Virus record (IMG/VR): IMGVR_UViG_3300034019_000517
Coordinates: 2,056-66,055 of that record
Source: a virus
Lineage: Duplodnaviria > Caudoviricetes
Length of the DNA: 64,000 nt
Strand: one strand, 5' to 3'
Shown: positions 13,421 to 39,572 of the stretch, piece after piece
Numbering within the stretch: position 1 is the first letter of the stretch
How the letters are laid out: each line of letters begins with the position of its first letter
Made by a program: the position numbers and the translations under genes
Notes under the pieces: generated by a model
Database searches by the model: none
Told to the model about the DNA's origin: nothing
Seen by the model: only the letters and a program-made list of their open reading frames with translations

Positions 13421-13430
13421 ACTTAACACT

Positions 13431-14416: not shown

Positions 14417-14932
14417 ATGTCGCGTCGAAAGATCAAACCTTCTTCTAAAAGGATTGTTAAAATAACGATCCCTGAATTCATTACTCACTTGCCATATAGC
14501 AAGACTAAATTCAAGAAGATAAACGGTCAATCGGTTTACGCGGGCATGAATAAGTTTGTTAGAGCTACTATAATGCGAAAAATGCATGAATACTTAGAAA
14601 AACATATCCCAACAGGTATGAAGTTTTCAGGGCCAATTCGCACTTCCCTACAAATGCATGCACCGATAAACTATGGAACAATAAGAGGTTCATATAATGC
14701 CGATTTGAAACAATTAGTGCTAAACTGGAAATCCCCAGAGCCTAATTATGTTCCAAATTGGGACGCAGATAATCAATGGATTTGGTTAAAAGCATTTAAT
14801 GATACGTTAGTTCATATGGGTATTATCTCAGATGATAATGTGTCAATAGTGCAAATTTCCGGAGAAGTAAGTTTTTTTCCAGTTTCGACATTAGATGAGC
14901 GTAAGCTCGTATTTATTATAGAAGAACTGTAA
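14417..14932 (+). CDS. RusA-like Holliday junction resolvase
   Basis: WDADN...KAFNDTLV..GIISDDN matches the RusA DxDN...K...D.L...G.I.DD pattern. Confidence 0.7.
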   Translation: MSRRKIKPSSKRIVKITIPEFITHLPYSKTKFKKINGQSVYAGMNKFVRATIMRKMHEYLEKHIPTGMKFSGPIRTSLQMHAPINYGTIRGSYNADLKQLVLNWKSPEPNYVPNWDADNQWIWLKAFNDTLVHMGIISDDNVSIVQISGEVSFFPVSTLDERKLVFIIEEL

Positions 14933-15921
14933 TGGAATTAAATTTATCACGATACGAGACAGAAACTATTAGTCATTCTGGTTTAAATGCATTTATGATT
15001 AGCCCAAGGGCTTTTCGTGCATATAAAGACGGGAGTGATTTTAATGGGTCAAAAAGCATGGATCTTGGGTCAGCCATACATGCTTATATCTTAGAACAAG
15101 AAACGTTCTATGATACGTATTTATTAAACTCTGGGGCTACTCCAAGTCCTATGTATAAGAAGTTTGTTGAAGAATTAGTTGGATATGACGTATTGTCTAT
15201 AGATCAATTAACTCAGAAACATTATGAAGATGCATACACAACTGCGGGATTTAAGAACCCTCTATTACCCAAAGTGATCGAGAATTTTGTGCAAGACAAA
15301 TTAGGTCTTAAAGAATACTATCATTTTCTAAAGTCACTGACTCCTGGAAAAATAGTGCTTTCTGAAGATGACTTTACTAAAGTTTTGTTGTGCACAGAAT
15401 CTATGTCTAACCATAAATTAGCATCCCGTTTAATTATTGGGCTCCCTTTTGAAGAGTCCTATGTTGAAAAAGAAATACTATTTGAATATCCTGGGTTTCG
15501 ATTTAAAATGAGAGCGTTTTTAGATAAACTCATTGTAGATAAAACCAAGAAACGTGTAACTATTATAGATGTAAAAACCACATCAAAGCCTGTAAAAGAC
15601 TTTGCTGAAAGTTTTTCACTATACGGATACCATAGACAAATGTATTTATACTATATTGCAACACAATACTGGCTCAAAGAACAAGGATATGATCCTTTAT
15701 CTTTTACATTTGAGTTTAAAATTGTTACGTTGCAAACTACCCCTGGGTATGAAGTTGCTGTTTATACACCTACGCCTTCTTCTTTACAAATTGCTAAATT
15801 AGCAGTTGAAGAAAACTTAGAACGTTTAAAATGGCACTTTGATAATGACCTCTGGGATTATCCTAGAGAGTATTACGAAGGGGATGGGTCATTACCTTTA
15901 GACCTTATTGATACTATATAA
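14932..15921 (+). CDS. PD-(D/E)xK exonuclease (RecE/exonuclease VIII-like)
   Basis: ISHSGL, GSAIHAYILE, EKEI, LDKL, IIDVKTT, YHRQMYLY. Confidence 0.85.
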   Translation: MELNLSRYETETISHSGLNAFMISPRAFRAYKDGSDFNGSKSMDLGSAIHAYILEQETFYDTYLLNSGATPSPMYKKFVEELVGYDVLSIDQLTQKHYEDAYTTAGFKNPLLPKVIENFVQDKLGLKEYYHFLKSLTPGKIVLSEDDFTKVLLCTESMSNHKLASRLIIGLPFEESYVEKEILFEYPGFRFKMRAFLDKLIVDKTKKRVTIIDVKTTSKPVKDFAESFSLYGYHRQMYLYYIATQYWLKEQGYDPLSFTFEFKIVTLQTTPGYEVAVYTPTPSSLQIAKLAVEENLERLKWHFDNDLWDYPREYYEGDGSLPLDLIDTI

Positions 15922-28500: not shown

Positions 28501-31500
28501 ATAATACCTAATTTACTTGCAGATACGTAAGCAGCTCTATCTACACCGGCAGCTATCATAGCATCTAATAGCTTTTTAGTTTCGGTGTTTTTAATTAATT
28601 GAGGTATTAACGGGAATGAAGATGATTTGATATAATGCATTCTTCTAATAGAACGCTCAGAATCAAATACAGATTCTACATATACTGGTTTAACTGCACT
28701 CATAACAAGAGTGAGTTCTTCCGGAGTTAAAATAACATCTTCTTTATTAGCTTTAGCATTATCAATACGGTCTTTGAAGTTTTTGTATTCTTCATCTGTA
28801 AGCTGTCCGTATTTATGCATAACATGCAAATGTTCAGCTAATGTAGTAACCTCCTGGGCATCTGTGGTATTGATTTTATCATACCCAGATGCTGCACCCA
28901 AAGCTTCGGTGTATTCTGCTAATTGATAAGAAGCTACGACATTGTCTTTGAGTATGATGTATTTAATACGTTCATTTGGGTCAAAGTTACCATCTAACCC
29001 AGGAGCAATATCTTTAGCTAAACGTTTTTGATATTCAATAACTGCAGCTGCAATTCGTTCCTTACTTGGCTTATTTCTATCACTTGGTTTTTTAAGAGGC
29101 TTATGGTGTAATGCAGGATCTCCAGATACTAACTGAGCCATGTTCATATAAGCTACAATGCTATTAAATTCAATATCTAATGCTGCGTATAGAACTTTAT
29201 TGGCTAAAGAAACTGCTTGTATTTTAGGTATATTATTTAAGTAAGAAGCATCCATAAACACTTCTTTAGTCTGTAAATTAACAATACCCATCTGTGTCCA
29301 CCTTTCAACTGTTTTTAAAGCGGTTGTTTTAATATGTTCACTTACTAGTTTTACTGCTTTTTCCATGCCTGCAGGAGTTAATGTTAAATCATCTCCTGAC
29401 CAGATACCATCAGTATTTTCTAATTGATCTTTATTTAAAAATGGGAAGAAGTGAAATAACTCTGCACCTCCGTCATCATATCCGTTGATTTTATTTTCCG
29501 GAGTAATTTTATGTCTATTTTTTTGGTATTCAGTAATACGATGTGCTTCAGCTTGAATAAGCTTAACAATCGTAGCTTTAGTTTCATTGATAAAGCTTAA
29601 CTCATTATCTTCAATAACATATGCTAGTTCTTCACGTATTGTTTTTAAAATAGGAGTTGTAGTTTTATCTGAAATAGTTAACCATGGAATATAACAAACA
29701 CGTTGATCTTTACCTGTGGCCCCTTTAGTATCAAACAGTTGATTACGATTTTGGAATAAACCTAATACCCACACTTCCATATCTATGTCAGTCATTTCTT
29801 GACGAACAATCCCAGGACGTGAAGATTTTTGTTTCTTAATCGTATCAGCATAAAATACTTTGAACACTGAAGTACGGAACTTTTCACTCTCTTTTAATCG
29901 TGCTAAATAGATCGAATTTTTAGAAAAAGGATCTGCTTCTAACTGTTTAATAAGTGTTTTATCGTTATCTTTTAATCTTCGTAAAGTATGAGATAGATAA
30001 GTAGGTTTAGTAAACGACTGTTTAGTCTTACCATCTCCTCCTCTACTAGATGTAGGATATATATTTTTAGTAAACCTTTGTTCAATCTGTGCTAACTTTT
30101 TAAATGCACTATCGTTAATCAAAGGGTTGTTTTCTGTAAACGACTGGTCTTCGTTTGCATCTACTTCAGTATCTTCACCATCTATATAAGATAAACCTTG
30201 CATACTACGTCCGATATAGGAGAAGAGGCCTTTGGTAAAAAGAGCTTCGAATGAAGTGTTAAGTTCTTTAACGCTGTTTTTACGTAAATGGTCTATAGAC
30301 TCGTGACTTAGACTGATACCTATGATTTCTAATACTTCATTGATCTCAGCATTAGTTTTATTTGGATTACTAGCTAATCTAGCAAGTCCTTCATTATACC
30401 TAGCTACTTCATCCTGGTTAATAATTGCACCTTCTGCAGTAAAACGAACTAAAGGAAGTAACTTTTGGTTCTCAATCCAGATACTTAAAATACGTCTATC
30501 TAAACCAATACGGTTTGTTTCTAAAGGCGTTATTTGAGTCTTTTTAGTTTTTGTAGAACCTTTTCCTTCTGACCTAGTAATATACTTTACAGTAAGAAAT
30601 TCAGCTAGTGCATTTGAAAATGTAGTTACAAACTGGTTACGAAGACTTTCACTATCTAGTTTTTCTAGCTTTTCTACTACTTGCTGTAAACGAGGATTTA
30701 ATGCATGCTCCGTTTTCAATATAAGAAGCATAGATGCAAAATCATGTGGTTTACCCTGTAATGCACTTAATAACTCATTAAATACAATATCCACAGGTAC
30801 TAATACATTTAGTCCTAAATGGTTTTTTAGTTTATGAATAGTTCCATCTGGTTTGTACTCAGCATCTACTACTGTACGTAAAAAGAGTTTAAGCTTACCA
30901 GAGGCTGTTGACCGTTGATCTATTTCAAAGTGAGCACCATCATTAAACTTTACACGTTCATAGCTTGAACCTTCATATTGAAAATCATCCTCTAGTTCTT
31001 TTAATTCTCCTTCTGTGAGTACTTCTGAATGTGTACTCATATTGAATTTACCTTTTTTCATGGTAATTCCAATAGCTGTAAGTTCTTCTTTTGTATTCAA
31101 CACAAAAGCTTTCCAGTTACGTAAAACTAAGTCATACTCTTCTGCCATATCAGCTGCGGCGTCTTTTAATACTTCTGGAGACGCTGTTAAAGAGTCAATT
31201 CCAATAGCTTTGTAACGTGTAACAACTTCAGGTTTTGTAAAATCTATTTGACCACTGGTTAATAGATCCCATCTTTTTTTAGAATTCGCGTATACTTCAA
31301 ATGTTAAGTCGAATATTTCCGTAACAGTTTTACCTTGTTCTTGTAACCTAAATACATTAGCTAAAATACCGTCTATAATTGCTTTTTGCTTATAGCCTTT
31401 AATAGGTAGTTTAGTTTTAGAATCTACTATATATAAGTTTTCTACACTCTTAGTTAGTTTAACTTCTTGTTCAGAAGTAAGAGTGAGTGCAGAAGTAGAT

Positions 31501-34500
31501 GGAGTAGAAGGAGCTACTGGGGTTTTATCAACTGGTTTAGGTTGACGTTCGTTTAGCAATTCTGCAAGTGCTCTAGCTTGAGAAATATCTGTATTAGCAA
31601 ATTTATCTGTTAGTACTTTTCCTGCAGCTTTAGTACGCAAATCAGTTTCAAGGTCTGGGTTTTCATCTAAGTAAAGAGCCCATAAAGCTTTATACTCTGT
31701 CCAACTTTGTTCTTTAGTTATTGAACGTAAAGGCGCTTTTCCTTTACCTAATTTCCAATCATTGCCTTGAGCTCTATAACCTTTTACATCTAGTTGGTAT
31801 GCTTCTTCTATAGTACGACCATCTTTTAATTTAGCAAACAAAGCACTGAATCGTTTATCTCCAGCAGAAGATACTTCATATGAATTAGCATCTGTTCTAG
31901 CCCATGTAATTAAAGGTTGTGAAGTAGATTTAGGTTGATTAGTTGATTTAGATAAAGATGCTTTAGTTAAAGAATAAACATCTTTAATAGCTTGTATAGA
32001 CTCAGGAGTCATTTTTCCATTATCTTGTCTACTTCCAATTCCAGCAAAATTTTTATGTAATATAGGTACAGTTGATTTTTCAAAAGTAGTTCCATTCCAT
32101 TTGTACCACTGGTTAGTTTTAGTATCAAAAACATTAACTTCTTTACCGTTAGCGATGGCCATTTCTACAGCATATCCGGTACCACCATCTACTGTGGTTC
32201 TTTTTGCATTTACTTTATAACCTTTTGAATTAATTTCATTTGGATATACAATAGGAGCAATAGCTATGACTTGTGTAGAGTTTTTAACTTGAAACCAGTT
32301 TCTACCTAATAAATTTGCATATTTATCTACCCAGGGTCTACCTAATACTTTAGCAGCTTCTTTTGCATGAGAAATTCCTTCGGCTAATTGTTCGTTGGTA
32401 AGCTCTTTATTACCTAAAGGTGTTTTATTATTAGACCAATAGTGATTGTGATTATTAAACCCAAAAGTTCTACCTATTGCATCAAACATACTATCAGCTC
32501 CAACAGCACCTCCACTGTGGTTTACAAAAGAATCTGTAGTATCTTGCGAATTTGAATCTGGTAGTAACTCAATATATTTTAGGTCTCTGTCTTTATTTAA
32601 AACTACTTCATTCCAAGTATTACCATATTCATCTGTAATTGGTTTAGGATTATATCCTTGTTTTTCAAGAACTCTTTTTACTTGATTTTCATAGAAATTA
32701 TAAATAGGTTTTAAAGCTCCAAATCCTTCAGGGCCTTCTATTCTAGCAAGTTCAGCTTTAATTTGGGTTATTTCAGTGTTTATGTTTTCGTTAGAAGTTA
32801 AAAACTGTAGATTTTCTTTGTATGCGTTTAATACATCTTCATTTGTAGGACGAGCTACTTTAAATTCACCTTCATTAGTTATTTTTTGTTTTGCCCAAAC
32901 TCCTCCTCTTTTACTATAATCTACTCTTTCTCCTTTGTCATTTTTAATAGAAAAATCTTTTACTGTAATTTCTTCAAAAGAAGCAACAGATTGTTTTTCA
33001 ATATTAGTTTGGAGCTCTTGTTCAAGTTGTTTAAGCCTAGTCTCTTTCTGCTTCTTAAACTCTTCCAATGTAGTATGTCCTTCTATTTTAGAAGCTGTAT
33101 TACCACTAGGAAATAATATTTTTTCATACCCTTGTTTAACGGCATCTTGAATGATTGAACGTATGAAGAATCCTACCCAATTGTTGTCGGTGTTTAGGAG
33201 TTGTAAGAATTGATTTTCTTTAGTATAATCTTGAGTTTCATTTAAGTAAGCTAAGTAAGCTTTATCGTAATCTTCTTGGGAATCAAAATTATGTGGATCA
33301 GGAACTTCTAACCCTTGAACCTCACTTACTAACTCCGTTTTATTTCTACCCTTCTGAAACAAATCAGATTGTATTTCTTGTACTCGGAGGGTTTTACCAG
33401 CCACTCTTTCATCTCTAGTAGCAGTTTCAAATTCTTTTCTCTGTTGCTCTACTAACTGATTTGCTTCTTCATTAGTTTTTCCTTCATACTCAGTTAAATG
33501 ATAAAAATATCCATCTAAATAATCTTCAATTGTAGTAGATCCTATAAACCCATCAAAATCATCTGTTTGTAATTGTCCTCCTAAAGGAAGTTGATTACCT
33601 GTTTTTTCGAGTTTATCATCCACTCTAACCCACCCAATTCCATTGTTAGTACTAAACTGAGCATGTCCTTTAATTGAAGGCATTATCAACGGAGTTCTGA
33701 ATTCTCTTTCTCTGTAGTTAGTTCCTCCAGGTGCTGCCATGTTAGCGTAATACTGAGTTGGTGCTCCTTTTGGTATTATCTCACCTTCACTATCATACTC
33801 AGGATCAGTAGAATCATAACTATAAGTTTGTGCAGAAGTATTAATATCAACCACAAAATTATAATTAAGTAACAACTCTGTTATTAATTGCTCACGATCT
33901 GTAGTACCTAAGTTTAATAAAATATTTTTTTGCTCTTTAGGAACTTCTAATTCAGTAAGTATTTTATCTAATGACCAATTATTTTTAGCACCTTTATTGA
34001 ATACCTGTACTCCTTTAGGTGACATTAAAAGATTCAGTGCTCTAAGCCTAAAATCAATTTTATTTTCACGAGTATTCAAACTCTGTTCAATAGCATCAAT
34101 AGGATCAAACATGAATTCCATATCCATATCTGAGGCATCTTTTAATGAGTCAAACAGATCATTAGGATTTGTTATAGAATCCGGTTCAGGTTTAGTTTCT
34201 GTAGGTTGTTGTGATTCTAAAGCAGCTAGTTCTGCATCATATTTAGCAATTATTTTTTGTTGTGCTTTTATTACTCTTTCTTTAGATTCTTTTTCTCTGT
34301 CAAATTTATCAGATTGATAAAATTCTAATAATTCTTTTTCTATAGGTATTCTTTCTTGTAACCATTCTTTTCTAAATAAATCCACATACTCTTTAATTTT
34401 ACCTTGTTCAAATTTTTCTTGATTTTCAATTCCTTTAATAGATTCAGCTTGTTCTATCAAATCAATAAGTTCTTTAGGTAAATACTTTTCTACCGATTTT

Positions 34501-37500
34501 CTACCTTGTTCTTTATTAATTATTAAAGCATTGCCTGTTTCAGGGTCAGTTGCTTGAAATTCTCCATTTTTTTGTTTAGGAAAAATATCCCATTTTTTGC
34601 CTGTAAATTGAACAAGAACTTCATATTTATCTCCTTTTATTTTTATTCTATAGCCTCCAGATTGGTCGGGAGGATAAATATTTAATACTTTTTGTAATCC
34701 TAATTCTTGTTTTCTTTTTTCTATATCAGCTTTTTTAGCTTCTATATCTAAACTACTTGACTGAGATTGTTTAGCTAATTCAGCGTTTCTTAATGCATCG
34801 TATTTGGCGTTGATTTTGTTTAAATAGTTTTTATTTGCTTGTTCTAATTTTTCTTTTCTTTCTTTTAACCAGTTGTCAGCTTGTTCTTTGTTTTTGAACG
34901 ATGCTGTTCTTACAATAGGTGCTTGAATCATTTTATCATTAGAATCAAATTTTGTTTCTTGAAGAACTTCTACTACTACTTCATAAGGATTATTGTTATA
35001 TTCTTCTTGCTCTTTTTTTGATAATTTATCAAATTCTTCTTTTGATAATGTAGCTAAAGGAATATCATTAGACTCTACAATAGCTTTATAACCAGTATTA
35101 AATTTATCACCTACATTTAAACCTTTTCTATTGGTTCTTGTTTTTGTACTTATTCTATCAGTATTTAATTCTTCTTGTCTACTATCTTCAATCTCTTTTA
35201 GTTTAGCTTCTATAGCTGAAATGTTAGGTTGAACTGATGATTTTGATTTTAGTTTAGTAATACTTTCTTCATATGCTGCAATTAAATCAAAAGCCTTTCT
35301 AGGTGCATTTAGTGTACTTGAAATTTCATCTCCTAATTTACCATCTCCATTATTTTGTAACCAACTAATATATGTTCCTTTAGTTAGATCTTCTGTAAAC
35401 TTAGGAATACCATTAACTTCTGCAAAGTAATCCAATAAAGCTTGAGTTACTGCAGTTCTGGTATTTGATTGAGTCTCTGGAAAAGAATCGCGTTTTCTTT
35501 GATTTGTAGGAATAGGAGTAGATTCAACCTGACTAGATTGTGTTGGAACGTTCGTTGGAGTACTTTCAACTGGGGCAGGAGTAGTTTTAATTGCAGTTTT
35601 AGTTAATTGATCTCCAATAACTTCTACAAAATCAAAAGTAATAACTGGTTGATCGAAAAAATTATATTCTTGAGTTTCAGAGATATACGTTTCCTTAACC
35701 TTAGTTAAACTATTATTGACTATGAAGTTTCTATAAGAGCCGTATTTTTGAACTTTAAGCTCTCCGTTATGTAAATATATAAACGAATAAGGATCTTTTG
35801 ATTGTAGACGTCCTAATTGAATCTGGAGGGGTTTAGAACCAAAGAGTGTTTTAATGAATGAAGGATCACTAATAGAAGCAGCTGTTAATTTTTGAGCTTT
35901 AGTTCCTTTTCTACCAATGTAAATACCGCCTTCGGTAATATTCATATAGAATCTATTACCTGGGATGTTGTCACCGTTTAATAGATCTTGGAAGCTTTCT
36001 CCTGACATTCTAGATACACTCATGTATTCGCCTATGAAATCTCTTAGGCCGGCAAGTGTAGATATGTCATGAGAAGTTAGTTTATAAACCTCTTTTTGGA
36101 CTGCTTTATCATTCGTTAAGTGTGCATTTAACGCATATTGAATGGTATCTAATACAGCACCATTCTTAGTTTTTTCCAGAGTAGTTGTAACAAAAGGTAC
36201 AGCTGCGAATTTACCCTCTACCGGAGTAGGCAGTACAATTGCTGGTGTACCATCGAATATTTTAGACCCATCTGTAACAATATTCTTAGTAGAACTTGTA
36301 GAAGGTCCTAAAAACGGAACTCCGGCTTTATAGATAACTATTTCATATTCAGAATGGTTAGTTACTCTAGTAGCTAGAATATCTGGGGTTTTAGTTTGAT
36401 ATAATTTACCAATTGACTTAAACTTAATAGAAAACTCAGGAAGGTTATCCATGTTTGCTAAAAGCCATTTTCTTAAAGCTAAAGCCAATTCAGCTTGTTT
36501 TTTAGGATGCCCAGGATCTTCGTCAGCTACGTTAGCATAACTTACTGTACCATCCGGATTTGTTACTTGTTGCAATATCCATGTAACATCATGAAGATAA
36601 CCAATTTTGTTACCTTCTTCATCCATAATTTTAATAGGAATACGTCCAACTTCGTTTTTTAAATCGTTGTAAGTTTCACGTACTCCTTGTGAGTTTACTA
36701 CATTATATTCAGTATCTATAGCAAGAGTTACAGTATCTCCTTTTTGGAAAAATATAGAAGACTCTATAAGTTTAAATAGCCCAGGATGTTTAGTATCAGA
36801 ATCAGAGACTTTGTAAATAGGAATTTTACCGCGTTTATTTACGGTACCTTTTACAAACTTCCACGCCCTTGATAAATAAGCTAATGCAGTTGCAGCCGGT
36901 ACTAACTTTTCTCCTACGAAAAGTATATTACCATTCTCTTCATATGCTCCATCTTCTTGTAGTTTATTACTTACAATTTCATCGAACATGTATGAAGTCA
37001 TATCTACTGTATCTGGGTCAGGTTCATTAGAAGTATTTATTTCTGCAGATCCTGTGACTGTTGGGTCTCCGGGGGTAGTTGTGTCGGTATCGGTTTTACC
37101 TTTTTCTTCATCGGTATCTTCGACCGGCGTTTCAGTAGTTGCTGAGTCTTGCGGGGTTTCTGGTTTTGGTTCCTCTTGGGTTGATGTCGTTGCATTCTTT
37201 GCATTAGCTATTTCTTCTTCAGCTTTACGTTTAGCTTCAGCTGCATCTGCGGCTTCTTTAGCTTTTTTAGCAGCTTCTTCTTGGAGTTTTCTCCAACCTA
37301 AAATAGTTTCAATATATTCTTCTCGCCCTTCTTTGCTTAAATGCTTAGTATAAGCTGAATTTGCAGTATTATAGCTATGGCGTAACTCTGCTAGTTTATT
37401 TTCATAGTCTTGTACTTCTTGTTCTTCAAATACAGACTCTTTGATTAACTCATTATATTGTTCTGCAGTTAAACCTACTCCATGGATTTTCTTAGCTTCC

Positions 37501-39572
37501 TCTTGTTTAGCATCTAAAGCTTTTAAAAGACGTTCTGCTTCTTTATTTGCATTGCTGAAAATGTATTCAATACGTCCTTTTACATAATCTTTAAAAGCTA
37601 CATTCGGAACTACTTCAACTCCGTTTACAAAGTGTGGAGGAATTTCTCCGTATTTATTAGCAAAACGTTGTCTAACAATAGGATCGCTTAAATCTGCTTC
37701 CTCTAGTTCTTTAAGCTTACGTTCTTCTTGTTCTAGTAAAGATTTTTGTGCTTGTAGCTTAGTTCCTAATTCTCGTAAATCTTTTAGCTCTTTAGAATCA
37801 ATCCCACGAGCCCGCATGCTTTTAAAGTTCTCATTTCTAATACGTTCTAGCTCTTCTGTAAAAGCCAACATAGTAGTTTCTAAACTGTATTTATTTAGAA
37901 ATAAGCGAAATGCTTCATTTCCATAACCTGCAAGGTTAGAGTTTAAATCAGCAAGATCATACTTATCCATAATATCTACATACTTCTTAGATAAGAACTT
38001 TATGTCTTTAGCCTTCTGTGCGGCTATTTTCTTGTAGTATAAGTAAGATTTAGGATCAATATCAAACCCAGCAGCTTTAGCTTCTTCTGGAGACATATTT
38101 GCAATGTCTTCAAACTCCTGTGCTAATACCTCTTGATGTCCATTTACAAAAGAGTCAAACGCTACTACATTAAATAAATCCTGTGTAGCTTGTTCATACT
38201 CTGGGGTATTCTTAGCCTCTTGCATCCTGGTTTGAGCGTCTTGCATCTTTTGAAGCTTATTGATTAAATACTCACGTCCTTTATTAAAACGTGTTGTATT
38301 CTCTTCAAAATGACTTAAGAATGCCTTAGGATTCATGGCTCCTAATACTGTTTGTTGACCAACACCACCAATTGCACCCAAGGCGGCTGCTAAGTGTGTT
38401 TCATCTTCTCCCAATGTACGTAATACTCTATCTAAAAAACTTAGTTGCTGTTCGCCCTCGGTAAGAGTACCTGCGGACTTTTTACCTTGATATTCTCCTT
38501 CTCTTTGAGCAATCTGGGTATTTACTTCTTCCCATGCTTCTAACCCACTTTCACGTAACATCATAGATGCTATCTGTCTTCCTGTACCTGGGGTATCTAT
38601 ACTTTTAAGATACTCCATATAATCAGTACGGTTCATGCCTGCAGGACGACGTAACTTAGGATCTATTTTATTATATGCTCCTTTTACTTTAAACAACGGA
38701 GCAATACCTGTAAAATTTAAAGCAGTATTAAACGAAGTAGAAAGTCTTACAGTAGTGGCTGCAGCTTCTGCTGCTTTTTTCTCTGCATCGTGTGCAGTTA
38801 GTTCACCGGATTTAACTTTAGCTTGTAATTCTTTAAGTGTACTCTTATATACATCAGCGCCGGCCATTGCTCCTTCTACATATGCTAATTCTGCAGCAGT
38901 AAAAGTTTGAGCACCTGCAGTTAATGCATTTCGCATAGACTTACCAGCTTTTAAAAATGAAGCCAATGCTCCAGCAGTGCCTTTAGTTAAGGCACCTACT
39001 CCCATACCAGTTATTGCAAACTCTCCAATAGATTCAATCAAGTCAGACCCATGAGAAATCCACCACGCATTATCTCCTAAGTCATATACTTCATTTGGGT
39101 TCTCCCTATAAATAGGAAACTGTTCTCTTAACGATTGACGTTGTTCTTGAGCCCATTCAGTAATTTTGTTATTGTAGTCGTTTCCAACTCCAGAGATGGT
39201 TTGAGCTTTTGCTTCTAAATCACCTAAGAATCCTAAGTTTTCTACAAGTCCTACTCCTATCCCACCTAGTACATTAGGTACGGCATACGATAGTTGTTCC
39301 CCTGTTGTCTGTGCTATCGCTCTTGTTTTATCAAGGGCCTTTATACCACCTATAGGTACAAAAACATTATTCAGATAGCTTTTATAGTCATCAGGATTAA
39401 ACCCTTCAAAAATGTTCGAATTTCGTACAATAGAAGACACACGTTCGCCCTCAGTACCCATTAAAGAGTTGAGAGGGCGAATAGTTGGTTTTTCTAAAGG
39501 TATTGAACTGGGGGTAGTAACGTTTGGGCTTAATGATTGTCTAGGAAGGATGCGTGGTTTGGGTTGATCCAT
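19539..39572 (-). CDS. Giant (6,677 aa) virion polyprotein: crAss-type virion RNA polymerase, zincin metallopeptidase, RecD-like SF1 helicase and accessory domains
   Basis: RIPNQGHSSM...QMGADFDVDKLY (two-barrel RNAP catalytic DxDxD, ~27,510-27,540); VFHELFHG...HEFI (~24,630-24,990); GYAGTGKTT, IIDEYSMV, IGDPAQLPP, YATTAHKVQG, YTAFTR (~22,930-24,330); located at the end of the structural arm as in crAss-like phages. Confidence 0.92.
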   Translation of the reverse strand: MDQPKPRILPRQSLSPNVTTPSSIPLEKPTIRPLNSLMGTEGERVSSIVRNSNIFEGFNPDDYKSYLNNVFVPIGGIKALDKTRAIAQTTGEQLSYAVPNVLGGIGVGLVENLGFLGDLEAKAQTISGVGNDYNNKITEWAQEQRQSLREQFPIYRENPNEVYDLGDNAWWISHGSDLIESIGEFAITGMGVGALTKGTAGALASFLKAGKSMRNALTAGAQTFTAAELAYVEGAMAGADVYKSTLKELQAKVKSGELTAHDAEKKAAEAAATTVRLSTSFNTALNFTGIAPLFKVKGAYNKIDPKLRRPAGMNRTDYMEYLKSIDTPGTGRQIASMMLRESGLEAWEEVNTQIAQREGEYQGKKSAGTLTEGEQQLSFLDRVLRTLGEDETHLAAALGAIGGVGQQTVLGAMNPKAFLSHFEENTTRFNKGREYLINKLQKMQDAQTRMQEAKNTPEYEQATQDLFNVVAFDSFVNGHQEVLAQEFEDIANMSPEEAKAAGFDIDPKSYLYYKKIAAQKAKDIKFLSKKYVDIMDKYDLADLNSNLAGYGNEAFRLFLNKYSLETTMLAFTEELERIRNENFKSMRARGIDSKELKDLRELGTKLQAQKSLLEQEERKLKELEEADLSDPIVRQRFANKYGEIPPHFVNGVEVVPNVAFKDYVKGRIEYIFSNANKEAERLLKALDAKQEEAKKIHGVGLTAEQYNELIKESVFEEQEVQDYENKLAELRHSYNTANSAYTKHLSKEGREEYIETILGWRKLQEEAAKKAKEAADAAEAKRKAEEEIANAKNATTSTQEEPKPETPQDSATTETPVEDTDEEKGKTDTDTTTPGDPTVTGSAEINTSNEPDPDTVDMTSYMFDEIVSNKLQEDGAYEENGNILFVGEKLVPAATALAYLSRAWKFVKGTVNKRGKIPIYKVSDSDTKHPGLFKLIESSIFFQKGDTVTLAIDTEYNVVNSQGVRETYNDLKNEVGRIPIKIMDEEGNKIGYLHDVTWILQQVTNPDGTVSYANVADEDPGHPKKQAELALALRKWLLANMDNLPEFSIKFKSIGKLYQTKTPDILATRVTNHSEYEIVIYKAGVPFLGPSTSSTKNIVTDGSKIFDGTPAIVLPTPVEGKFAAVPFVTTTLEKTKNGAVLDTIQYALNAHLTNDKAVQKEVYKLTSHDISTLAGLRDFIGEYMSVSRMSGESFQDLLNGDNIPGNRFYMNITEGGIYIGRKGTKAQKLTAASISDPSFIKTLFGSKPLQIQLGRLQSKDPYSFIYLHNGELKVQKYGSYRNFIVNNSLTKVKETYISETQEYNFFDQPVITFDFVEVIGDQLTKTAIKTTPAPVESTPTNVPTQSSQVESTPIPTNQRKRDSFPETQSNTRTAVTQALLDYFAEVNGIPKFTEDLTKGTYISWLQNNGDGKLGDEISSTLNAPRKAFDLIAAYEESITKLKSKSSVQPNISAIEAKLKEIEDSRQEELNTDRISTKTRTNRKGLNVGDKFNTGYKAIVESNDIPLATLSKEEFDKLSKKEQEEYNNNPYEVVVEVLQETKFDSNDKMIQAPIVRTASFKNKEQADNWLKERKEKLEQANKNYLNKINAKYDALRNAELAKQSQSSSLDIEAKKADIEKRKQELGLQKVLNIYPPDQSGGYRIKIKGDKYEVLVQFTGKKWDIFPKQKNGEFQATDPETGNALIINKEQGRKSVEKYLPKELIDLIEQAESIKGIENQEKFEQGKIKEYVDLFRKEWLQERIPIEKELLEFYQSDKFDREKESKERVIKAQQKIIAKYDAELAALESQQPTETKPEPDSITNPNDLFDSLKDASDMDMEFMFDPIDAIEQSLNTRENKIDFRLRALNLLMSPKGVQVFNKGAKNNWSLDKILTELEVPKEQKNILLNLGTTDREQLITELLLNYNFVVDINTSAQTYSYDSTDPEYDSEGEIIPKGAPTQYYANMAAPGGTNYREREFRTPLIMPSIKGHAQFSTNNGIGWVRVDDKLEKTGNQLPLGGQLQTDDFDGFIGSTTIEDYLDGYFYHLTEYEGKTNEEANQLVEQQRKEFETATRDERVAGKTLRVQEIQSDLFQKGRNKTELVSEVQGLEVPDPHNFDSQEDYDKAYLAYLNETQDYTKENQFLQLLNTDNNWVGFFIRSIIQDAVKQGYEKILFPSGNTASKIEGHTTLEEFKKQKETRLKQLEQELQTNIEKQSVASFEEITVKDFSIKNDKGERVDYSKRGGVWAKQKITNEGEFKVARPTNEDVLNAYKENLQFLTSNENINTEITQIKAELARIEGPEGFGALKPIYNFYENQVKRVLEKQGYNPKPITDEYGNTWNEVVLNKDRDLKYIELLPDSNSQDTTDSFVNHSGGAVGADSMFDAIGRTFGFNNHNHYWSNNKTPLGNKELTNEQLAEGISHAKEAAKVLGRPWVDKYANLLGRNWFQVKNSTQVIAIAPIVYPNEINSKGYKVNAKRTTVDGGTGYAVEMAIANGKEVNVFDTKTNQWYKWNGTTFEKSTVPILHKNFAGIGSRQDNGKMTPESIQAIKDVYSLTKASLSKSTNQPKSTSQPLITWARTDANSYEVSSAGDKRFSALFAKLKDGRTIEEAYQLDVKGYRAQGNDWKLGKGKAPLRSITKEQSWTEYKALWALYLDENPDLETDLRTKAAGKVLTDKFANTDISQARALAELLNERQPKPVDKTPVAPSTPSTSALTLTSEQEVKLTKSVENLYIVDSKTKLPIKGYKQKAIIDGILANVFRLQEQGKTVTEIFDLTFEVYANSKKRWDLLTSGQIDFTKPEVVTRYKAIGIDSLTASPEVLKDAAADMAEEYDLVLRNWKAFVLNTKEELTAIGITMKKGKFNMSTHSEVLTEGELKELEDDFQYEGSSYERVKFNDGAHFEIDQRSTASGKLKLFLRTVVDAEYKPDGTIHKLKNHLGLNVLVPVDIVFNELLSALQGKPHDFASMLLILKTEHALNPRLQQVVEKLEKLDSESLRNQFVTTFSNALAEFLTVKYITRSEGKGSTKTKKTQITPLETNRIGLDRRILSIWIENQKLLPLVRFTAEGAIINQDEVARYNEGLARLASNPNKTNAEINEVLEIIGISLSHESIDHLRKNSVKELNTSFEALFTKGLFSYIGRSMQGLSYIDGEDTEVDANEDQSFTENNPLINDSAFKKLAQIEQRFTKNIYPTSSRGGDGKTKQSFTKPTYLSHTLRRLKDNDKTLIKQLEADPFSKNSIYLARLKESEKFRTSVFKVFYADTIKKQKSSRPGIVRQEMTDIDMEVWVLGLFQNRNQLFDTKGATGKDQRVCYIPWLTISDKTTTPILKTIREELAYVIEDNELSFINETKATIVKLIQAEAHRITEYQKNRHKITPENKINGYDDGGAELFHFFPFLNKDQLENTDGIWSGDDLTLTPAGMEKAVKLVSEHIKTTALKTVERWTQMGIVNLQTKEVFMDASYLNNIPKIQAVSLANKVLYAALDIEFNSIVAYMNMAQLVSGDPALHHKPLKKPSDRNKPSKERIAAAVIEYQKRLAKDIAPGLDGNFDPNERIKYIILKDNVVASYQLAEYTEALGAASGYDKINTTDAQEVTTLAEHLHVMHKYGQLTDEEYKNFKDRIDNAKANKEDVILTPEELTLVMSAVKPVYVESVFDSERSIRRMHYIKSSSFPLIPQLIKNTETKKLLDAMIAAGVDRAAYVSASKLGIMKVTEIHNPDGTVKDNLDLSNSIIELPRSGFRIQQENPYDPDKQKIVTVSQMNKLLFEGILNMSKFVLPGQKENYVGHELKALKEGIKQRLMSMGADKLFDDLGVVNDEGVLRIQDITKLQKALVEEAKGRKYPINDIMSLQLNADKTGFIIPLGFNASAAKLESMLMSLITNRILHQKMKGLSYVQGSAGIGLQGMKEWNELEAADQSSIIFVEGFDFSKGLQYVRNNHNKTKLLGAQVLVPSFFRDDNGNLVDVSLLTKKLPDGRTVLDPEKVPAELLTMVGARIPNQGHSSMLPMEVVGFLPESMGNLIIVPNGITTQMGADFDVDKLYVYQYHHTYKDGKFSKVTSAAVTNKTTVVGEDPKELQNLYVDIHLSVLTNPKMLSRIVEPLDQPFLQDLAKEVSEIQQDTESGGFFTRRGQQVGFISNRYGKKGVAVMSLASTFNAIIQDKNMYLKAGDSKRYFRFKGPAGELLMSNISGVGTVEYNGVTIRKQQIISAIQSAAVDNAKDQLLDKLNLNSDTFKVAIVLALLETDNGTILSPDYIAYFLTQPVVKEFLDELQKLRSTVIRSETSNFENEAFYRVTKRWIEKLSNGVVDSDGMENKSFSPQELKDMLVLENPTDEQITNQLKVLALFSELSAYGDELSRIQSVINTDSKGAGQDLFDAVYRNGLVDTVLDNPLIANSKALIYNTDPVTEIDTETEIGTALRLGPRLALSLFNPLFFYETPFFKSLSRVYQFNTGEPHVNSDKLRLLARAYKSYGFSKTIPNVNAVRTQLLFGDQSLAKRLHQAKTTEWGKRNILLQRLNPKFAGKLNDIDTVSYYAATSTNIDESDNIKAFVDLLVSNDPIQKELALDLVTYLIVTGGVQNALNFLKYAPVQVLIETGVVAKLKEFENTEDDPQVLLKQFFQHNPEEAIQLDVNITNQVSLVTADQSVIRLTNPEKDTFPKSADRLKLTIPGVQGTVVPTYLSVRNLQNNTWILYERQGVDVNNDIIYKRIPVLGNSFISEYDGNLTLTDYQPSLLADNPKVNIPQSLVPVVKIAAPTKTTDDTLNPNPESPAGSTNVLLTFDNKPKLKFIPDLAEQETLESALPKIFSEIESKIPTPSNMLLIETMEFFKDIFAKKTTFSTINNPEFISTASWGLYTSTNEVKMDIFINEPKIRSLEHYAESVFHELFHGLSSIKLYQYEFEHKKGRGFFRSKRDKVFKEYLESLPPLSEYDKKLIRNLYTLMDIARQKLLKDPKYAKVTKLIMEAEIQRDSETGTPKFPTDEPYFKTVYPLFNIHEFITGVMTNEDFQKVLAEMPFNSTQTLWERIVELFTKYIETIAAKLGKNIDNTVLYSSIHDILSLIDKKDSTEMGPGKKTAPVGPPVNDSPVVEAPKHVVKLESGKQITLNVQQVEALSIINVFLDKVIPSDATPDQRTFVLKGYAGTGKTTIIKEVLKGRRKKIAVSAISHAATNKVKQTTQFPGTTLASILGLAPDYKADEFDIDNIKFDAKNPPLLPKLDILIIDEYSMVNKDLLKFLLLEMKKHTNLKIIFIGDPAQLPPPGEDESPVSYILPNSYQLTIVERQNNSNPILDVVTAIRNDLESTKDAFTHATMVNPNTEEGIVFFNSDTETDRQAWEDTLMAAFSSEEFQSNPLHAKVIAFTNPKVEQYNKWLRKKLRPTDPYLVSVGEVLFTYASFKKGYDVVMPNSSYQRINYVKPDTHHTGLTGYTVMFEDVNKKFFVLDYTKPDNIVMYSELLEEARANAKLTKNWDAFWDLHGSIIILTDTVLRTKNNTTKTLTRNMDYSYATTAHKVQGQDITHVFVDENNLEKMKKNVVVNGKVTTRLETDYKTINRAKYTAFTRTTKKVYSLSSKTTEHDNQFKDSEFAISSNQDSTYKEIIGRIRTRIHQLKKSALKDQKNAAVYELEITRLEAEINNLNKTPTIAEILEAVGRSLTWVENMLNRSHLTDSQLQQIIETLDAWKNIRTALFNLDIETPNDEFARTLDLLENRITANEIKWEKIARTLVANRITNETSANMPPSGLKQLKDISTGAAYGLDASRQGNPVTSFLAKVLQSTARDANYKSAALLKEIEDKRTWFMGTEGYRKHKFEVFLQRHEGEWTGNMVTLESVQWHKDVSALKRSVAFAAGSNKLHKVKGKIAQFRRFANTEAIIIDIYKLYDAAQKDEYLKYLEQEVGPERATELVAQAKSKVEHYWKQLASIKLNLDIQQTLDSSFTDSMKSEALLQWKERNSPFAAFDEIMNDQVSDIMHDRKNYSRLVIAPRNSANTKYFDSNWTTIQNDPDLKEFYNWYRDKLSMFMDLIPAHLKHKNRIYDNFLPKVRKDLLKSFLEGGTKIGMQHLKSEAIFGLGTAPITGSALTIGDRTVEEVPFNYLNPITKKVVVENRLVSGVDSKHVQEVNAADEMQSKDLFDILGLFGHMAYNYQHKSVVEDISLLTKRVVENAAEVVVDAGGKNIYDKTKKKFFTKSKGLENLNKSLQYLIDASLYGNRNVEIGQTNQKLFADPEMKKLHEAIVRELVELEQSKDSMSLADYLEKKEELEEQMKTLDYRLYTHSKALRQLMQVTQLKGMGYNIFSAFSNIGFGVMANFIHANGRRDFDNSSMMKAWTIMLHASGKSVQDNTGIPLTSDVAKKVAALMDKFDVLFEVNEAAYNKSSKRRTWFSKWAPYELQKRSEYFVQGMTMVAMLLHEKVTDVNGKERTLFEAFNADGEWNATEFGLNENWSGDIDTEMKDFKAFRNKMIQLIKRIHGNYDPNSPILIKKTILGQMLMQFRSWMPEGIASRFEKEDMDEQLGRVVRGRWATYGDIGALRSLFTLGRQLLYMNDPDKAFELIRKSAAEGGEFNVDTAIENMRKNLSELAFLALLTAFMWGLKYAFEDDEDEVTKAAYHMMMNQFSRVAADLYFYINPSTFEQIIKNPLPVFRTVIDFVEAFDTTQEELFTEDTDWEKVQRNTYKAFPIVNNVNKWKTQADSILE
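34213..35215 (-). repeat. Two tandem protein modules bracketed by repeated helical caps (IEAK...RQEEL/RKQEL and KI[N/I]AKYDA...ELA)
   Basis: IEAKLKEIEDSRQEEL (~35,166-35,215) to KINAKYDALRNAELAK (~34,771-34,820); DIEAKKADIEKRKQEL (~34,701-34,750) to KIIAKYDAELAALES (~34,213-34,258); the interiors are unrelated. Confidence 0.75.

What the first reader, a model, noticed from the sequence alone, without database searches (positions are those of the whole stretch)
34213..35215. Cassette-like modules with shared helical caps inside the virion RNAP polyprotein: candidate domain-swapping system
Seen in sequence: two consecutive ~150-180-aa segments open with the same motif (IEAKLKEIEDSRQEEL, DIEAKKADIEKRKQEL) and close with another shared motif (KINAKYDALRNAELAK, KIIAKYDAELAALES). 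Their interiors look unrelated and they are joined by a short S/Q linker. The DNA here looks by eye richer in A/T runs than the flanking RNAP-coding DNA. Inference: the two caps pair as an antiparallel coiled-coil stalk that displays an arbitrary payload domain, and the conserved cap-coding DNA gives homology for in-frame gain, loss or exchange of payloads. That would be an integron-like, in-frame cassette array of effectors packaged and injected with the RNAP. This is my best candidate for an undescribed system.
Basis: partly seen in the sequence, partly recalled or inferred. Interest (0 to 1): 0.85.

Follow-up and report, generated by a model that had tools for sequence, protein, structure and literature searches.

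The report
Swappable capped modules in phage protein
Two neighbouring pieces of a giant phage protein that also carries the virus's RNA polymerase are each framed by the same pair of short helices, and in related uncultured phages the same frames surround dozens of unrelated inserts that have been exchanged whole, with the breaks falling in the frames.

Summary
In the 6,677-aa ORF (19539-39572, minus strand), aa 1454-1601 and 1609-1787 each begin with an IEAK..IE.R.QEL helix and end with an I.AKYDA..L helix. Their interiors are unrelated. The DNA is the most A/T-rich 1-kb stretch of the window.

The caps are widespread. The C-cap coding pattern occurs in at least 120 IMG/VR stretches and the N-cap pattern in 101. 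Of 121 ORFs with a C-cap, 100 also have an N-cap, almost always in the order N then C. They bracket 97 distinct payloads of 15-266 aa, which fall into 73 sequence clusters.

Cassettes move, and the breakpoints lie in the caps:
- Window module 2 is 93-95% DNA-identical to copies in two otherwise unrelated giant genes.
- It is 99-100% identical to copies in other freshwater contigs whose flanks differ.
- Near-identical backbones carry different payloads, or different numbers of modules, between the same caps.
- Cap codons are conserved at synonymous sites, rare codons included.

Three parts of the reading are not shown: cap-to-cap pairing in 3D, what the payloads do, and any integron-type machinery. 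I found no prior description. Verdict: a real, apparently undescribed, cap-bounded in-frame cassette system in giant polyvalent proteins of crAss-like phages.

The parts
19539..39572 (-). Giant 6,677-aa ORF (polyvalent virion protein) that holds the two modules
   Evidence: Domains found: crAss-type RNAP; AAA_30/PIF1/Dda-like helicase; DprA-like phrog_768; phrog_9995; virion structural phrog_16227.
35166..35213 (-). N-cap of module 1 (IEAKLKEIEDSRQEEL, aa 1454-1469); a degenerate copy of the cap
   Evidence: It gives only a partial HMM match. It lies in predicted helix 5-25 of the module 1 model.
34818..35165 (-). Payload 1 (aa 1470-1585): a small alpha/beta domain with no known family
   Evidence: Pfam and PHROGs give nothing. 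AF2 pLDDT is 78.8. Foldseek against PDB finds no hit at E<=0.001. The family recurs in 9 other proteins, always between caps.
34770..34817 (-). C-cap of module 1 (KINAKYDALRNAELAK, aa 1586-1601)
   Evidence: HMM score 10.5 bits. It forms the end of predicted helix 116-161.
34749..34769 (-). S/Q-rich linker (QSQSSSL) between the modules
34701..34748 (-). N-cap of module 2 (DIEAKKADIEKRKQEL, aa 1609-1624)
   Evidence: HMM score 13.0 bits. Predicted helix 2-22. DNA identity to L001 and L002 starts here. Contig loose ends pile up at 34748.
34257..34700 (-). Payload 2 (aa 1625-1772): a four-stranded sheet plus helices, with no known family
   Evidence: AF2 pLDDT 88.8 and pTM 0.79. Foldseek against PDB finds no hit at E<=0.001. 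Pfam and PHROGs give nothing. 80-87% aa and 93-95% DNA identity in otherwise unrelated genes.
34212..34256 (-). C-cap of module 2 (KIIAKYDAELAALES, aa 1773-1787)
   Evidence: HMM score 21.5 bits. Predicted helix 159-185. DNA identity to L001 and L002 ends here. Contig loose ends pile up at 34215.
32583..34190 (-). Conserved domain just downstream of the modules (aa 1795-2330); it starts a separate ORF in most relatives
   Evidence: 62 IMG/VR relatives at 31-52% identity. In most of them the match begins within about 130 aa of an ORF start.
27453..29180 (-). crAss-type RNA polymerase catalytic region (aa about 3465-4040, includes DFDVD)
   Evidence: PDB 6VR4, E 3.7e-30. Homologues are present in 10 of 10 cap-bearing contigs tested.
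6792..7472 (+). Sak4-like single-strand annealing protein; a candidate recombination function (link to the cassettes is inferred)
   Evidence: phrog_2872, E 2e-73.
14932..15921 (+). Exonuclease VIII-like protein; a candidate partner of the annealing protein (inferred)
   Evidence: phrog_412, E 1.1e-32.

Best explanation
Each of the two segments is one copy of a modular unit used by crAss-like, RNAP-carrying uncultured phages in their giant multi-domain virion ('polyvalent') proteins. The unit has three parts:
- a conserved N-terminal amphipathic helix, consensus (S)DIEAKKADIERRRQEEL;
- a freely variable payload of about 15 to 270 aa;
- a conserved C-terminal helix, consensus (K)INAKYDAELAALE.
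A short flexible linker usually follows.

Shown:
- The caps are a coupled, ordered pair.
- They bracket very many unrelated payloads.
- Whole modules, or the payloads between caps, have been exchanged between otherwise unrelated or otherwise near-identical genes, with breakpoints inside or at the inner edge of the caps.
- The cap-coding DNA is conserved beyond what the amino acids require.

Inferred:
- Exchange happens by homologous or homeologous recombination between cap-coding DNA of co-infecting phages. One crossover in each cap replaces a payload in frame.
- The phage's own Sak4-like annealing protein and exonuclease are plausible catalysts.
- The two helices pack together, so that the payload's ends meet and any insert is tolerated and can fold on its own.
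- The payloads are accessory host-takeover or counter-defence domains delivered with the RNA polymerase.

In this window both modules look like imports from a more A/T-rich donor, module 2 recently.
For: Caps are coupled and ordered.
- 442 ORFs of 150 aa or more were scanned. Among them 121 have a C-cap, 100 of those also have an N-cap, and the order strings are NC 83, NCNC 4, NCNCNC 2, C-only 21 and others 13.
- In an independent sample chosen by the N-cap pattern there were 101 stretches, 43 of them new loci. Of those 43, 22 have a downstream C-cap, 10 hold too little downstream DNA to judge, and 11 have none. Seven of the 11 are an unrelated ADIERSRQE family and 2 show a degenerate C-cap by eye.

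Payloads are diverse.
- The 97 distinct payloads of 15-266 aa fall into 73 BLASTP clusters.
- Only 3 of 98 modules hit any Pfam family, and no PHROG is hit by more than 4 of 98.

Modules are mobile.
- The window protein resembles 19 other giant proteins only in module 1 or module 2; two of them also share the RNAP region.
- Module 2 DNA is 94.6% identical to L001 over 520 nt and 92.7% to L002 over 533 nt. Identity starts in N-cap2 and ends in C-cap2, and the flanks are unalignable.
- In freshwater runs from other studies, a 26,990-nt contig holds 34215-34733 with 4 differences and a 2,779-nt contig holds 34221-34733 with none. Both have unlike flanks.
- In the same runs, loose ends cluster at 34215 and 34748, depth peaks in the cap bins, and contigs in 3 runs carry both caps with 353 other letters between them.

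Swaps occur in shared backbones.
- L018 against L019 and L060: flanks are 80-84% identical in protein, the modules are 121 aa and 172 aa with unrelated payloads, and homology stops at the inner edges of the caps.
- L008 against L119: flanks are 97% and 85% identical. L008 has one 77-aa module where L119 has two abutting modules.
- L005 against L055: the payloads differ while cap DNA is 97.7% identical over 43 nt.

DNA-level conservation.
- Codon homozygosity in the caps is 0.79 (N) and 0.73 (C), against 0.54 and 0.53 gene-wide.
- It is position-specific and includes rare codons. The C-cap Ile is ATC in 45 of 71 (gene-wide share 0.10) and one C-cap Leu is CTA in 40 of 72 (gene-wide 0.10).
- Among 72 modules with unrelated payloads, 30% of pairs (N-cap) and 34% of pairs (C-cap) share an exact run of 20 nt or more, up to 51 and 49 nt.

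Foreign composition: lowest GC in the window, with GC3 at half the gene's value.

Host class.
- 10 of 10 cap-bearing contigs tested encode the crAss-type RNAP.
- The window encodes a Sak4-like annealing protein and an exonuclease.
- Caps are predicted helices with pLDDT mostly above 85 in a compact module 2 model, pTM 0.79.
- In crAss001 the RNAP-associated proteins are detected in virions, and the authors propose that they are stored in the capsid, partly unfold during ejection and refold in the cell (PMC10172136, passages read).
Against: - Cap-to-cap contact was not observed; the structure tool returns no coordinates.
- Module 1's caps are degenerate, and its N-cap falls below my HMM threshold. 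The window's two cap pairs share only about 12 identical bases, so they are poor substrates for exchange within this genome.
- No close orthologue of the window's own backbone was found. Gain or loss therefore cannot be polarised for this gene itself.
- Module 1 has no near-identical copy; the best is 74% aa.
- Arrays are short, and 49 of 62 loci related through the neighbouring domain have no cap within about 10 kb.
- Breakpoints at caps would also arise if recombination were random and only in-frame, fold-preserving products survived.
- Codon conservation could reflect recent common descent of caps that travel with their payloads, rather than selection for homology.
- Most loci were chosen by an exact cap motif, which inflates apparent C-cap conservation.
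- Payload function is unknown.
Confidence: 0.7

Rival explanations
1. The caps are conserved for a job of their own, and cassette exchange at them is a by-product. Possible jobs are a signal for proteolytic processing by the polyprotein's own metalloprotease, a capsid-targeting or anchoring element, or a nucleic-acid-binding basic helix.
For: - Natural modules with almost no payload exist, with 15-18 aa between the caps in several loci. This suggests the cap pair can stand alone.
- The N-cap is strongly basic (KK..RRR).
- The giant protein has an HExxH motif (HELFH, seen).
- Polyvalent proteins are proposed to be autoprocessed by embedded metallopeptidases (PMC5512222, passages read).
Against: - A peptide signal does not explain the position-specific conservation of synonymous codons, rare ones included.
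- It does not explain why the two caps always come as an ordered pair around an insert.
- No cleavage data exist either way.
Confidence: 0.2
2. The two window modules are a tandem duplication, or all modules are one old domain family whose ends stayed conserved while the cores diverged beyond recognition.
For: Both modules share the same end motifs and a helix-core-helix layout.
Against: - There is no similarity between the interiors by BLASTP or by profile-profile comparison.
- Each interior has its own family, found alone in other proteins.
- Payload lengths run from 15 to 266 aa in 73 clusters.
- The two models differ in the order of their secondary-structure elements.
- Caps that keep synonymous codons next to cores with no detectable similarity are not compatible with uniform divergence.
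Confidence: 0.04
3. The similarity of the caps is chance resemblance between charged, low-complexity helices.
For: The motifs are short and rich in K, E, R and A. BLASTP gives E 0.33 for the N-caps alone.
Against: - An exact nine-residue C-cap coding pattern occurs in at least 120 viral stretches, but in only 24 stretches of 185,579 prokaryote genomes, all of them MAG contigs.
- The caps are ordered pairs.
- DNA-level identity begins and ends at them.
Confidence: 0.01

Closest known systems
Polyvalent proteins of phages and conjugative elements (Iyer et al. 2017, PMC5512222; abstract and searched passages read)
   Same: Both are giant multi-domain proteins delivered with the DNA, combining RNAP, helicase, peptidase and many uncharacterised domains. 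They show strong mosaicism between relatives. The authors raise the possibility of recombinational variability like polymorphic-toxin cassettes for one subgroup.
   Different: In the passages I searched (terms linker, coiled, helical, hairpin, shuffl, recombination), no conserved flanking element around the domains is described. Here a specific two-helix frame with conserved coding DNA delimits the exchanged units. The paper's supplementary files could not be seen.
crAss-like virion RNA polymerase and cargo proteins (phi14:2 gp66, PDB 6VR4; crAss001 gp47/gp49/gp50, PMC10172136, passages read)
   Same: The window protein contains the same RNAP catalytic region. It lies in a virion gene block with the major head protein.
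   Different: The window fuses into one 6,677-aa ORF what relatives split over two or three genes. The capped modules are not part of the solved polymerase. GenBank phage records gave no match to the modules or to a minimal module.
Polymorphic toxin cassettes (CdiA-CT after the VENN motif, Rhs tips; PMC3150448, search listing and start of abstract only; the role of the motif as recombination boundary is recalled)
   Same: A short conserved motif marks the border of a hypervariable, exchangeable protein segment. Its conserved DNA allows in-frame replacement by recombination.
   Different: Those systems have one boundary at the start of a C-terminal tip, plus a cognate immunity gene and orphan cassettes downstream. 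Here there are two boundaries around internal segments of a phage protein, no immunity gene, and no orphan array was seen.
Mosaic tail-fibre adhesins of T-even phages, with conserved motifs between hypervariable segments (recalled, not searched here)
   Same: Conserved short motifs act as recombination points for swapping variable protein segments between phages.
   Different: The protein class (receptor binding), the motifs, and the purpose (host range) are all different.
Integron gene cassettes
   Same: Both are arrays of exchangeable units with conserved boundaries.
   Different: Integrons need an integrase and attC/attI sites and move whole genes. Here no integrase was found among the ORFs scanned, the units are in-frame protein segments, and arrays hold at most three modules in my sample.

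Membership tests
Polyvalent protein (Iyer et al. 2017) | One polypeptide of a phage or mobile element that combines several unrelated enzymatic or binding domains | tested here: met
   RNAP region; SF1 Dda/PIF1-like helicase, DprA-like domain and phrog_9995; HExxH motif seen in the translation; and the two capped modules.
Polyvalent protein (Iyer et al. 2017) | Packaged in the virion and delivered into the host with the DNA | not testable with these tools
   Inferred from homology to the virion RNAP of phi14:2, from the crAss001 proteomics described in PMC10172136, and from the gene's place beside head genes.
crAss-like virion RNA polymerase | Sequence similarity to the solved gp66 polymerase, including the metal-binding Asp motif | tested here: met
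   PDB 6VR4 chain A, E 3.7e-30, query 165-739 against chain 874-1402. DFDVD is present in the translation. That DxDxD is the catalytic motif is recalled, not tested.
Integron-like cassette system | Site-specific tyrosine recombinase next to the array | tested here: not met
   No integrase family appeared among the 30 neighbouring window ORFs and the giant ORF scanned with PHROGs or Pfam. Not every small ORF was scanned.
Integron-like cassette system | Cassettes are whole genes bounded by attC recombination sites | tested here: not met
   The units are in-frame segments of one ORF, bounded by helix-coding DNA.
Polymorphic-toxin-type cassette exchange | Conserved boundary motif where homology between variants stops | tested here: met
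   Homology stops in or at the caps in every comparison made.
Polymorphic-toxin-type cassette exchange | Variable part is the C-terminal tip, followed by an immunity gene and orphan cassettes | tested here: not met
   The modules are internal, at aa 1454-1787 of 6,677, and the next gene is a large virion-block ORF.
Tandem duplication | The two units are homologous over their length | tested here: not met
   only the caps align.
Antiparallel helical hairpin (stalk) displaying an insert | Both caps are helices | tested here: met
   AF2 with DSSP: helices 2-22 and 159-185 in module 2, and helices 5-25 and 116-161 in module 1.
Antiparallel helical hairpin (stalk) displaying an insert | The two helices contact each other | tested here: inconclusive
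   The models come without coordinates. The only indirect signs are the compact pTM of 0.79 and the high pLDDT of both terminal helices in module 2.

The most novel reading that the evidence does not exclude
The cap pair is a dedicated system for in-frame cassette exchange, a protein-level counterpart of an integron, and it works at two levels.
- In the protein, the two helices zip together. They close the payload off as an independently folding insert that can pass through the tail partly unfolded and snap back.
- In the DNA, the same 40-50 bases serve as homology arms, kept uniform by continual recombination and used by the phages' own annealing proteins.
Together these would let freshwater and other crAss-like phages trade injected host-takeover or counter-defence domains as plug-in units.
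Probability: 0.4. Interest if true: 0.9.

Novelty: new variant of a known kind. Interest (0 to 1): 0.8.

Why it matters
Giant virion-packaged proteins of crAss-like phages are among the least understood phage proteins. How their domain content turns over is also unknown.

A recognisable frame that marks exchangeable units has three uses:
- It gives a search handle (two short HMMs) for cataloguing hundreds of unannotated payload domains. These are presumably delivered into the host at the first moment of infection, which makes them prime candidates for new host-takeover or anti-defence functions.
- It is a natural example of how recombination can be channelled to protein-domain borders.
- It suggests a scaffold for inserting foreign domains into phage cargo proteins in laboratory phage-host systems.

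It also makes an open question testable: whether domain shuffling in polyvalent proteins is random or guided.

Tried and rejected
- **Cap pairing by complex prediction.** I submitted N-cap2 (31 aa) and C-cap2 (36 aa) as separate chains with the family alignment. The tool gave no verdict (score 0.12, mark 0.32). This is neither for nor against pairing.
- **Reading contacts from the AF2 models.** This was not possible, because no coordinate files are provided.
- **Function of the payloads.**
  - Pfam and PHROGs on the two window modules gave nothing, even at E up to 10 and up to 1.
  - Foldseek against PDB gave best E 0.25 for module 2 and 0.75 for module 1. The top rows are not significant.
  - The ESM Atlas gave no usable lead.
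- **GenBank phage records.**
  - No match to the 450-aa region by tblastn, nor to 10 kb of DNA by megablast.
  - No true match to a 62-aa minimal module at E up to 10.
  - BLAST's low-complexity filter may hide caps.
- **Close orthologues of the window's upstream backbone (aa 880-1445) in IMG/VR.** None were found.
- **Earlier findings of this scan.** Nothing turned up by sequence.
- **Uncovered parts of the window in the laid runs.** In X17 and X18 the flanks have no cover at 90% likeness. I do not use this as evidence of absence. Only the contigs that run on into unlike sequence are used.
- **Hand-written regular expressions for the caps.** They were too stiff and I replaced them with HMMs.

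Full report
**1. What is in the window**

The finding lies inside one ORF on the minus strand, 19539-39572, which encodes 6,677 aa.

| Motif | Sequence | Residues | Window |
|---|---|---|---|
| N-cap1 | IEAKLKEIEDSRQEEL | aa 1454-1469 | 35166-35213 |
| C-cap1 | KINAKYDALRNAELAK | aa 1586-1601 | 34770-34817 |
| N-cap2 | DIEAKKADIEKRKQEL | aa 1609-1624 | 34701-34748 |
| C-cap2 | KIIAKYDAELAALES | aa 1773-1787 | 34212-34256 |

The linker QSQSSSL joins the two modules.

The interiors are not related.
- BLASTP aligns only 14 N-cap residues (E 0.33).
- A profile-profile comparison of the two module families aligns only 24 columns at the C-cap.

The A/T claim holds.
- GC is 0.269 against 0.337 (sd 0.022) for the gene.
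- This is the lowest of 1,260 sliding windows in the 64 kb.
- Third-position GC is 0.10 against 0.20, so the region looks compositionally foreign and is not merely rich in Lys and Glu.

**2. The host protein and phage**

- Residues of roughly 3465-4040 match the solved virion RNA polymerase of the crAss-like phage phi14:2 (PDB 6VR4, E 3.7e-30).
- Other recognisable parts are a Dda/PIF1-like helicase, a DprA-like domain, phrog_9995 and a 'virion structural protein' PHROG.
- The gene sits in a block with a major head protein and other virion proteins.
- The window is most of a 66,055-base IMG/VR virus record, estimated 75% complete.
- The phage also encodes DNA polymerase, helicases, primase, RIIA/RIIB-like proteins, a Sak4-like annealing protein and an exonuclease VIII-like protein.

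The protein is therefore a very large polyvalent virion protein in the sense of Iyer et al. 2017 (PMC5512222; abstract and passages read).

**3. Each module has its own family, found alone in other giant proteins**

A full HMMER scan of 1.84 billion representative proteins with aa 1440-1800 gave 18 hits at E<=0.001.
- Nine cover only module 2.
- Nine cover module 1; in two of these (P0015, P0018) the match runs a little way into the N-cap of a following module.
- None has the window's pair of payloads side by side.

BLASTP of the whole 6,677-aa protein against these proteins finds similarity only in module 1 or module 2. The exception is the RNAP region in two of them. In the partners the module sits anywhere from residue 26 to residue 1681.

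**4. The caps are a widespread, coupled pair**

I built HMMs of both caps (consensus SDIEAKKADIERRRQEELNA and LEDKINAKYDAELAALEQT) and scanned 442 ORFs of 150 aa or more from 123 loci plus the window.
- 121 ORFs have a C-cap, 102 have an N-cap, and 100 have both.
- The order strings are NC 83, NCNC 4, NCNCNC 2, NNC 5, C-only 21 and 8 others.

*Sample chosen by the N-cap.* The pattern for ADIERRRQE gave 101 stretches. Many are the same loci as before; 43 are new. Of the 43 new loci:
- 22 have a C-cap downstream;
- 10 hold too little downstream DNA to judge;
- 11 have none above threshold. Seven of these are an unrelated ADIERSRQE protein family, two show a degenerate C-cap by eye, and one is cut short.

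*Where the caps are not found.*
- In 185,579 prokaryote genomes the C-cap pattern occurs in only 24 stretches. All are on MAG contigs of scattered taxa, which I read as mis-binned phage DNA.
- GenBank phage records gave nothing.
- No Pfam or PHROG family covers the caps.

*Which phages carry them.* All 10 of the 10 cap-bearing contigs I tested encode a homologue of the window's RNAP region in giant ORFs.

**5. Payload diversity**

- The 108 N-to-C modules contain 97 distinct payloads of 15-266 aa.
- These fall into 73 BLASTP clusters at E<0.001 and at least 50% cover.
- Some clusters are probably distantly related, for example a recurring small beta-rich type, so 73 is an upper bound.
- Only 3 of 98 modules match any Pfam family.

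**6. Cassettes move, and the breaks are in the caps**

(a) *Window module 2 in unrelated genes.* Its DNA is 94.6% identical to L001 (520 nt) and 92.7% identical to L002 (533 nt). In the three-way alignment, identity begins at the IEAKKADIE codons and ends in the AKYDAELAAL codons. The flanks do not align, and the three proteins are otherwise unrelated.

(b) *Freshwater metagenome contigs from four other studies*, none flagged as a possible source.
- A 26,990-nt contig holds 34215-34733 with 4 differences.
- A 2,779-nt contig holds 34221-34733 with none.
- Both run on into unlike sequence.
- Loose ends cluster at 34215 and 34748, the outer edges of the two caps.
- Summed contig depth peaks in the two bins that hold the caps.
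- Contigs in three runs carry both caps with 353 other letters between them, which means the same frame with another payload.
- The tool warns that such joints at 90% likeness come from other organisms or repeats. That is exactly the reading here.

(c) *Shared backbones with different cassettes*.
- L018 against L019 and L060: flanks are 80-84% identical in protein. The modules of 121 and 172 aa have unrelated payloads. Protein and DNA homology stop at the end of the N-cap and resume at the start of the C-cap.
- L008 against L119: flanks are 97% and 85% identical. L008 has one 77-aa module where L119 has two abutting modules (C-cap, 6 residues, then the next N-cap).
- L005 against L055: flanks are 60-65% identical, the payloads differ, and a 43-nt stretch of cap DNA is 97.7% identical.

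(d) *An unbiased sample.* Among 62 loci related through the neighbouring domain (aa 1795-2330), 13 carry caps and 49 do not. Module content is therefore variable in this phage group.

**7. The cap DNA is conserved beyond the protein**

Across 72 modules with unrelated payloads:

| Measure | N-cap | C-cap |
|---|---|---|
| Mean DNA identity (first 45 nt of payloads: 34%) | 65% | 71% |
| Pairs sharing an exact run of 20 nt or more | 30% | 34% |
| Longest exact run | 51 nt | 49 nt |
| Codon homozygosity at consensus residues | 0.79 | 0.73 |
| Gene-wide codon homozygosity | 0.54 | 0.53 |

The conservation is position-specific and includes codons that are rare in these genes.
- The C-cap Ile is ATC in 45 of 71 (gene-wide share 0.10).
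- One C-cap Leu is CTA in 40 of 72 (gene-wide share 0.10), while another is TTA in 55 of 65.
- One C-cap Ala is GCA in 56 of 71, while another is GCT in 64 of 71.

This shows that the caps are homologous as DNA. It is what frequent recombination or homogenisation would produce. It does not by itself prove selection for homology.

**8. Structure**

| | Module 2 (aa 1603-1794) | Module 1 (aa 1447-1608) |
|---|---|---|
| Alignment rows | 10 | 12 |
| pLDDT | 88.8 | 78.8 |
| pTM | 0.79 | 0.57 |
| N-cap helix | 2-22 | 5-25 |
| Between the caps | four strands and four helices | a small sheet and two short helices |
| C-terminal helix | 159-185 (C-cap) | 116-161, ends in the C-cap |

- Neither model has a PDB match at E<=0.001.
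- The caps are helices, and in module 2 they belong to a confidently compact model.
- Whether they touch each other could not be read, because no coordinates are given.
- Natural modules with only 15-18 residues between the caps argue by inference that the pair can form a helix-loop-helix on its own.

**9. Mechanism and odds**

*Shown:* an ordered cap pair, many unrelated payloads, exchange with breakpoints in the caps, DNA-level cap conservation, foreign composition of the window's modules, and occurrence in crAss-type RNAP phages.

*Inferred:*
- Exchange is by recombination between cap-coding DNA of co-infecting phages. The Sak4-like protein and the exonuclease are plausible agents. That such annealing proteins tolerate short, imperfect homology is recalled, not tested here.
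- The helices pair and make any insert structurally tolerable.
- The payloads are delivered accessory functions.

For crAss001, passages of PMC10172136 report that the RNAP-associated proteins are detected in virions by mass spectrometry. The authors propose that these proteins are stored in the capsid, partly unfold during ejection and refold afterwards. A self-closing frame would suit such domains, but this is speculation.

I put 0.7 on the cassette-exchange explanation as a whole. I put about 0.5-0.6 on cap pairing. I put 0.2 on the rival that the caps primarily serve another role (processing, targeting or binding), with exchange as a by-product.

**10. Comparison with what is known, and novelty**

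- The host protein is a member of the polyvalent-protein class and contains a crAss-type RNAP.
- The exchange principle works like polymorphic-toxin tips bounded by a conserved motif, and like mosaic tail fibres. It is not a member of those systems: the modules are internal, two-sided, and have no immunity gene.
- It is not an integron. No integrase was found among the scanned ORFs, and the units are in-frame segments.

I found no description of these caps.
- The motif strings occur in none of about 8.4 million papers and preprints.
- Topical searches gave nothing relevant.
- The polyvalent-protein paper has no passage on flanking helices or linkers. Its supplements could not be seen.

I rate it a new variant of a known kind, conserved-boundary cassette exchange in injected multi-domain proteins. 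It has a realistic chance of being a dedicated system.

Noticed in passing
window 19539-39572 (-); L001 5324-13405 and 13407-20582; L002 6128-12238 and 12245-19879: The window fuses into one 6,677-aa ORF what relatives encode as two or three consecutive giant ORFs. The domain at aa 1795-2330 starts its own ORF in most of the 62 related loci. The two capped modules therefore sit just before what is a gene boundary elsewhere.
   Followed up: partly
window 36850-37450: There is a local composition anomaly: GC up to 0.44 and AT skew down to -0.54. It coincides with an Ala/Glu/Lys- then Thr/Pro/Asp-rich low-complexity stretch of the giant protein (about aa 710-900). This is probably a flexible linker.
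   Followed up: no
window 6792-7472 (+), 14932-15921 (+), 11228-14411 (+): The phage encodes a Sak4-like single-strand annealing protein, an exonuclease VIII-like protein, and RIIA- and RIIB-like proteins.
   Followed up: partly
P0010 about aa 250-275; P0018 and L028 between its two modules; L120 before its third module: A longer inter-module junction is shared by otherwise different giant proteins. It reads C-cap, then ..SGVSGSALKDVE or ..SSSALKDVE, then the next N-cap. Some linkers may therefore travel with the caps.
   Followed up: no
L018, L027, L047, L057, L069, L077, L079, L083 payloads: Many small payloads share a beta-hairpin-like theme..V.V.TYKDGSK..-like. They may be one distant family, so the count of 73 payload clusters is an upper bound.
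   Followed up: no
L124-L147 (genome contigs): All 24 prokaryote-genome hits to the C-cap pattern are on MAG contigs labelled as very different taxa, including Saccharibacteria, Nitrososphaeraceae, Chlamydiales and Woesearchaeota. They are most likely phage contigs binned by mistake.
   Followed up: no
L217, L220, L222, L224, L226, L227, L239: A separate family of giant proteins carries ..QREADIERSRQEYVQAQ.. and matched the N-cap DNA pattern by chance. It has no C-cap.
   Followed up: no
window 34701-34748 vs 34212-34256, and cap consensus: The cores of the two caps resemble each other (IEAKKAD against INAKYDA; GCTAAA is shared in the DNA). They could be an old duplication of one helix.
   Followed up: no
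L007, L019, L037, L060 payloads; also L036, L120 and P0002: Some payloads contain ..LFHGGP...SFSATP.. or ..YHHTK...QFG.GLN.. motifs. From memory these recall ADP-ribosyltransferase-like domains of polyvalent proteins. Pfam did not report them at E<=0.001.
   Followed up: no
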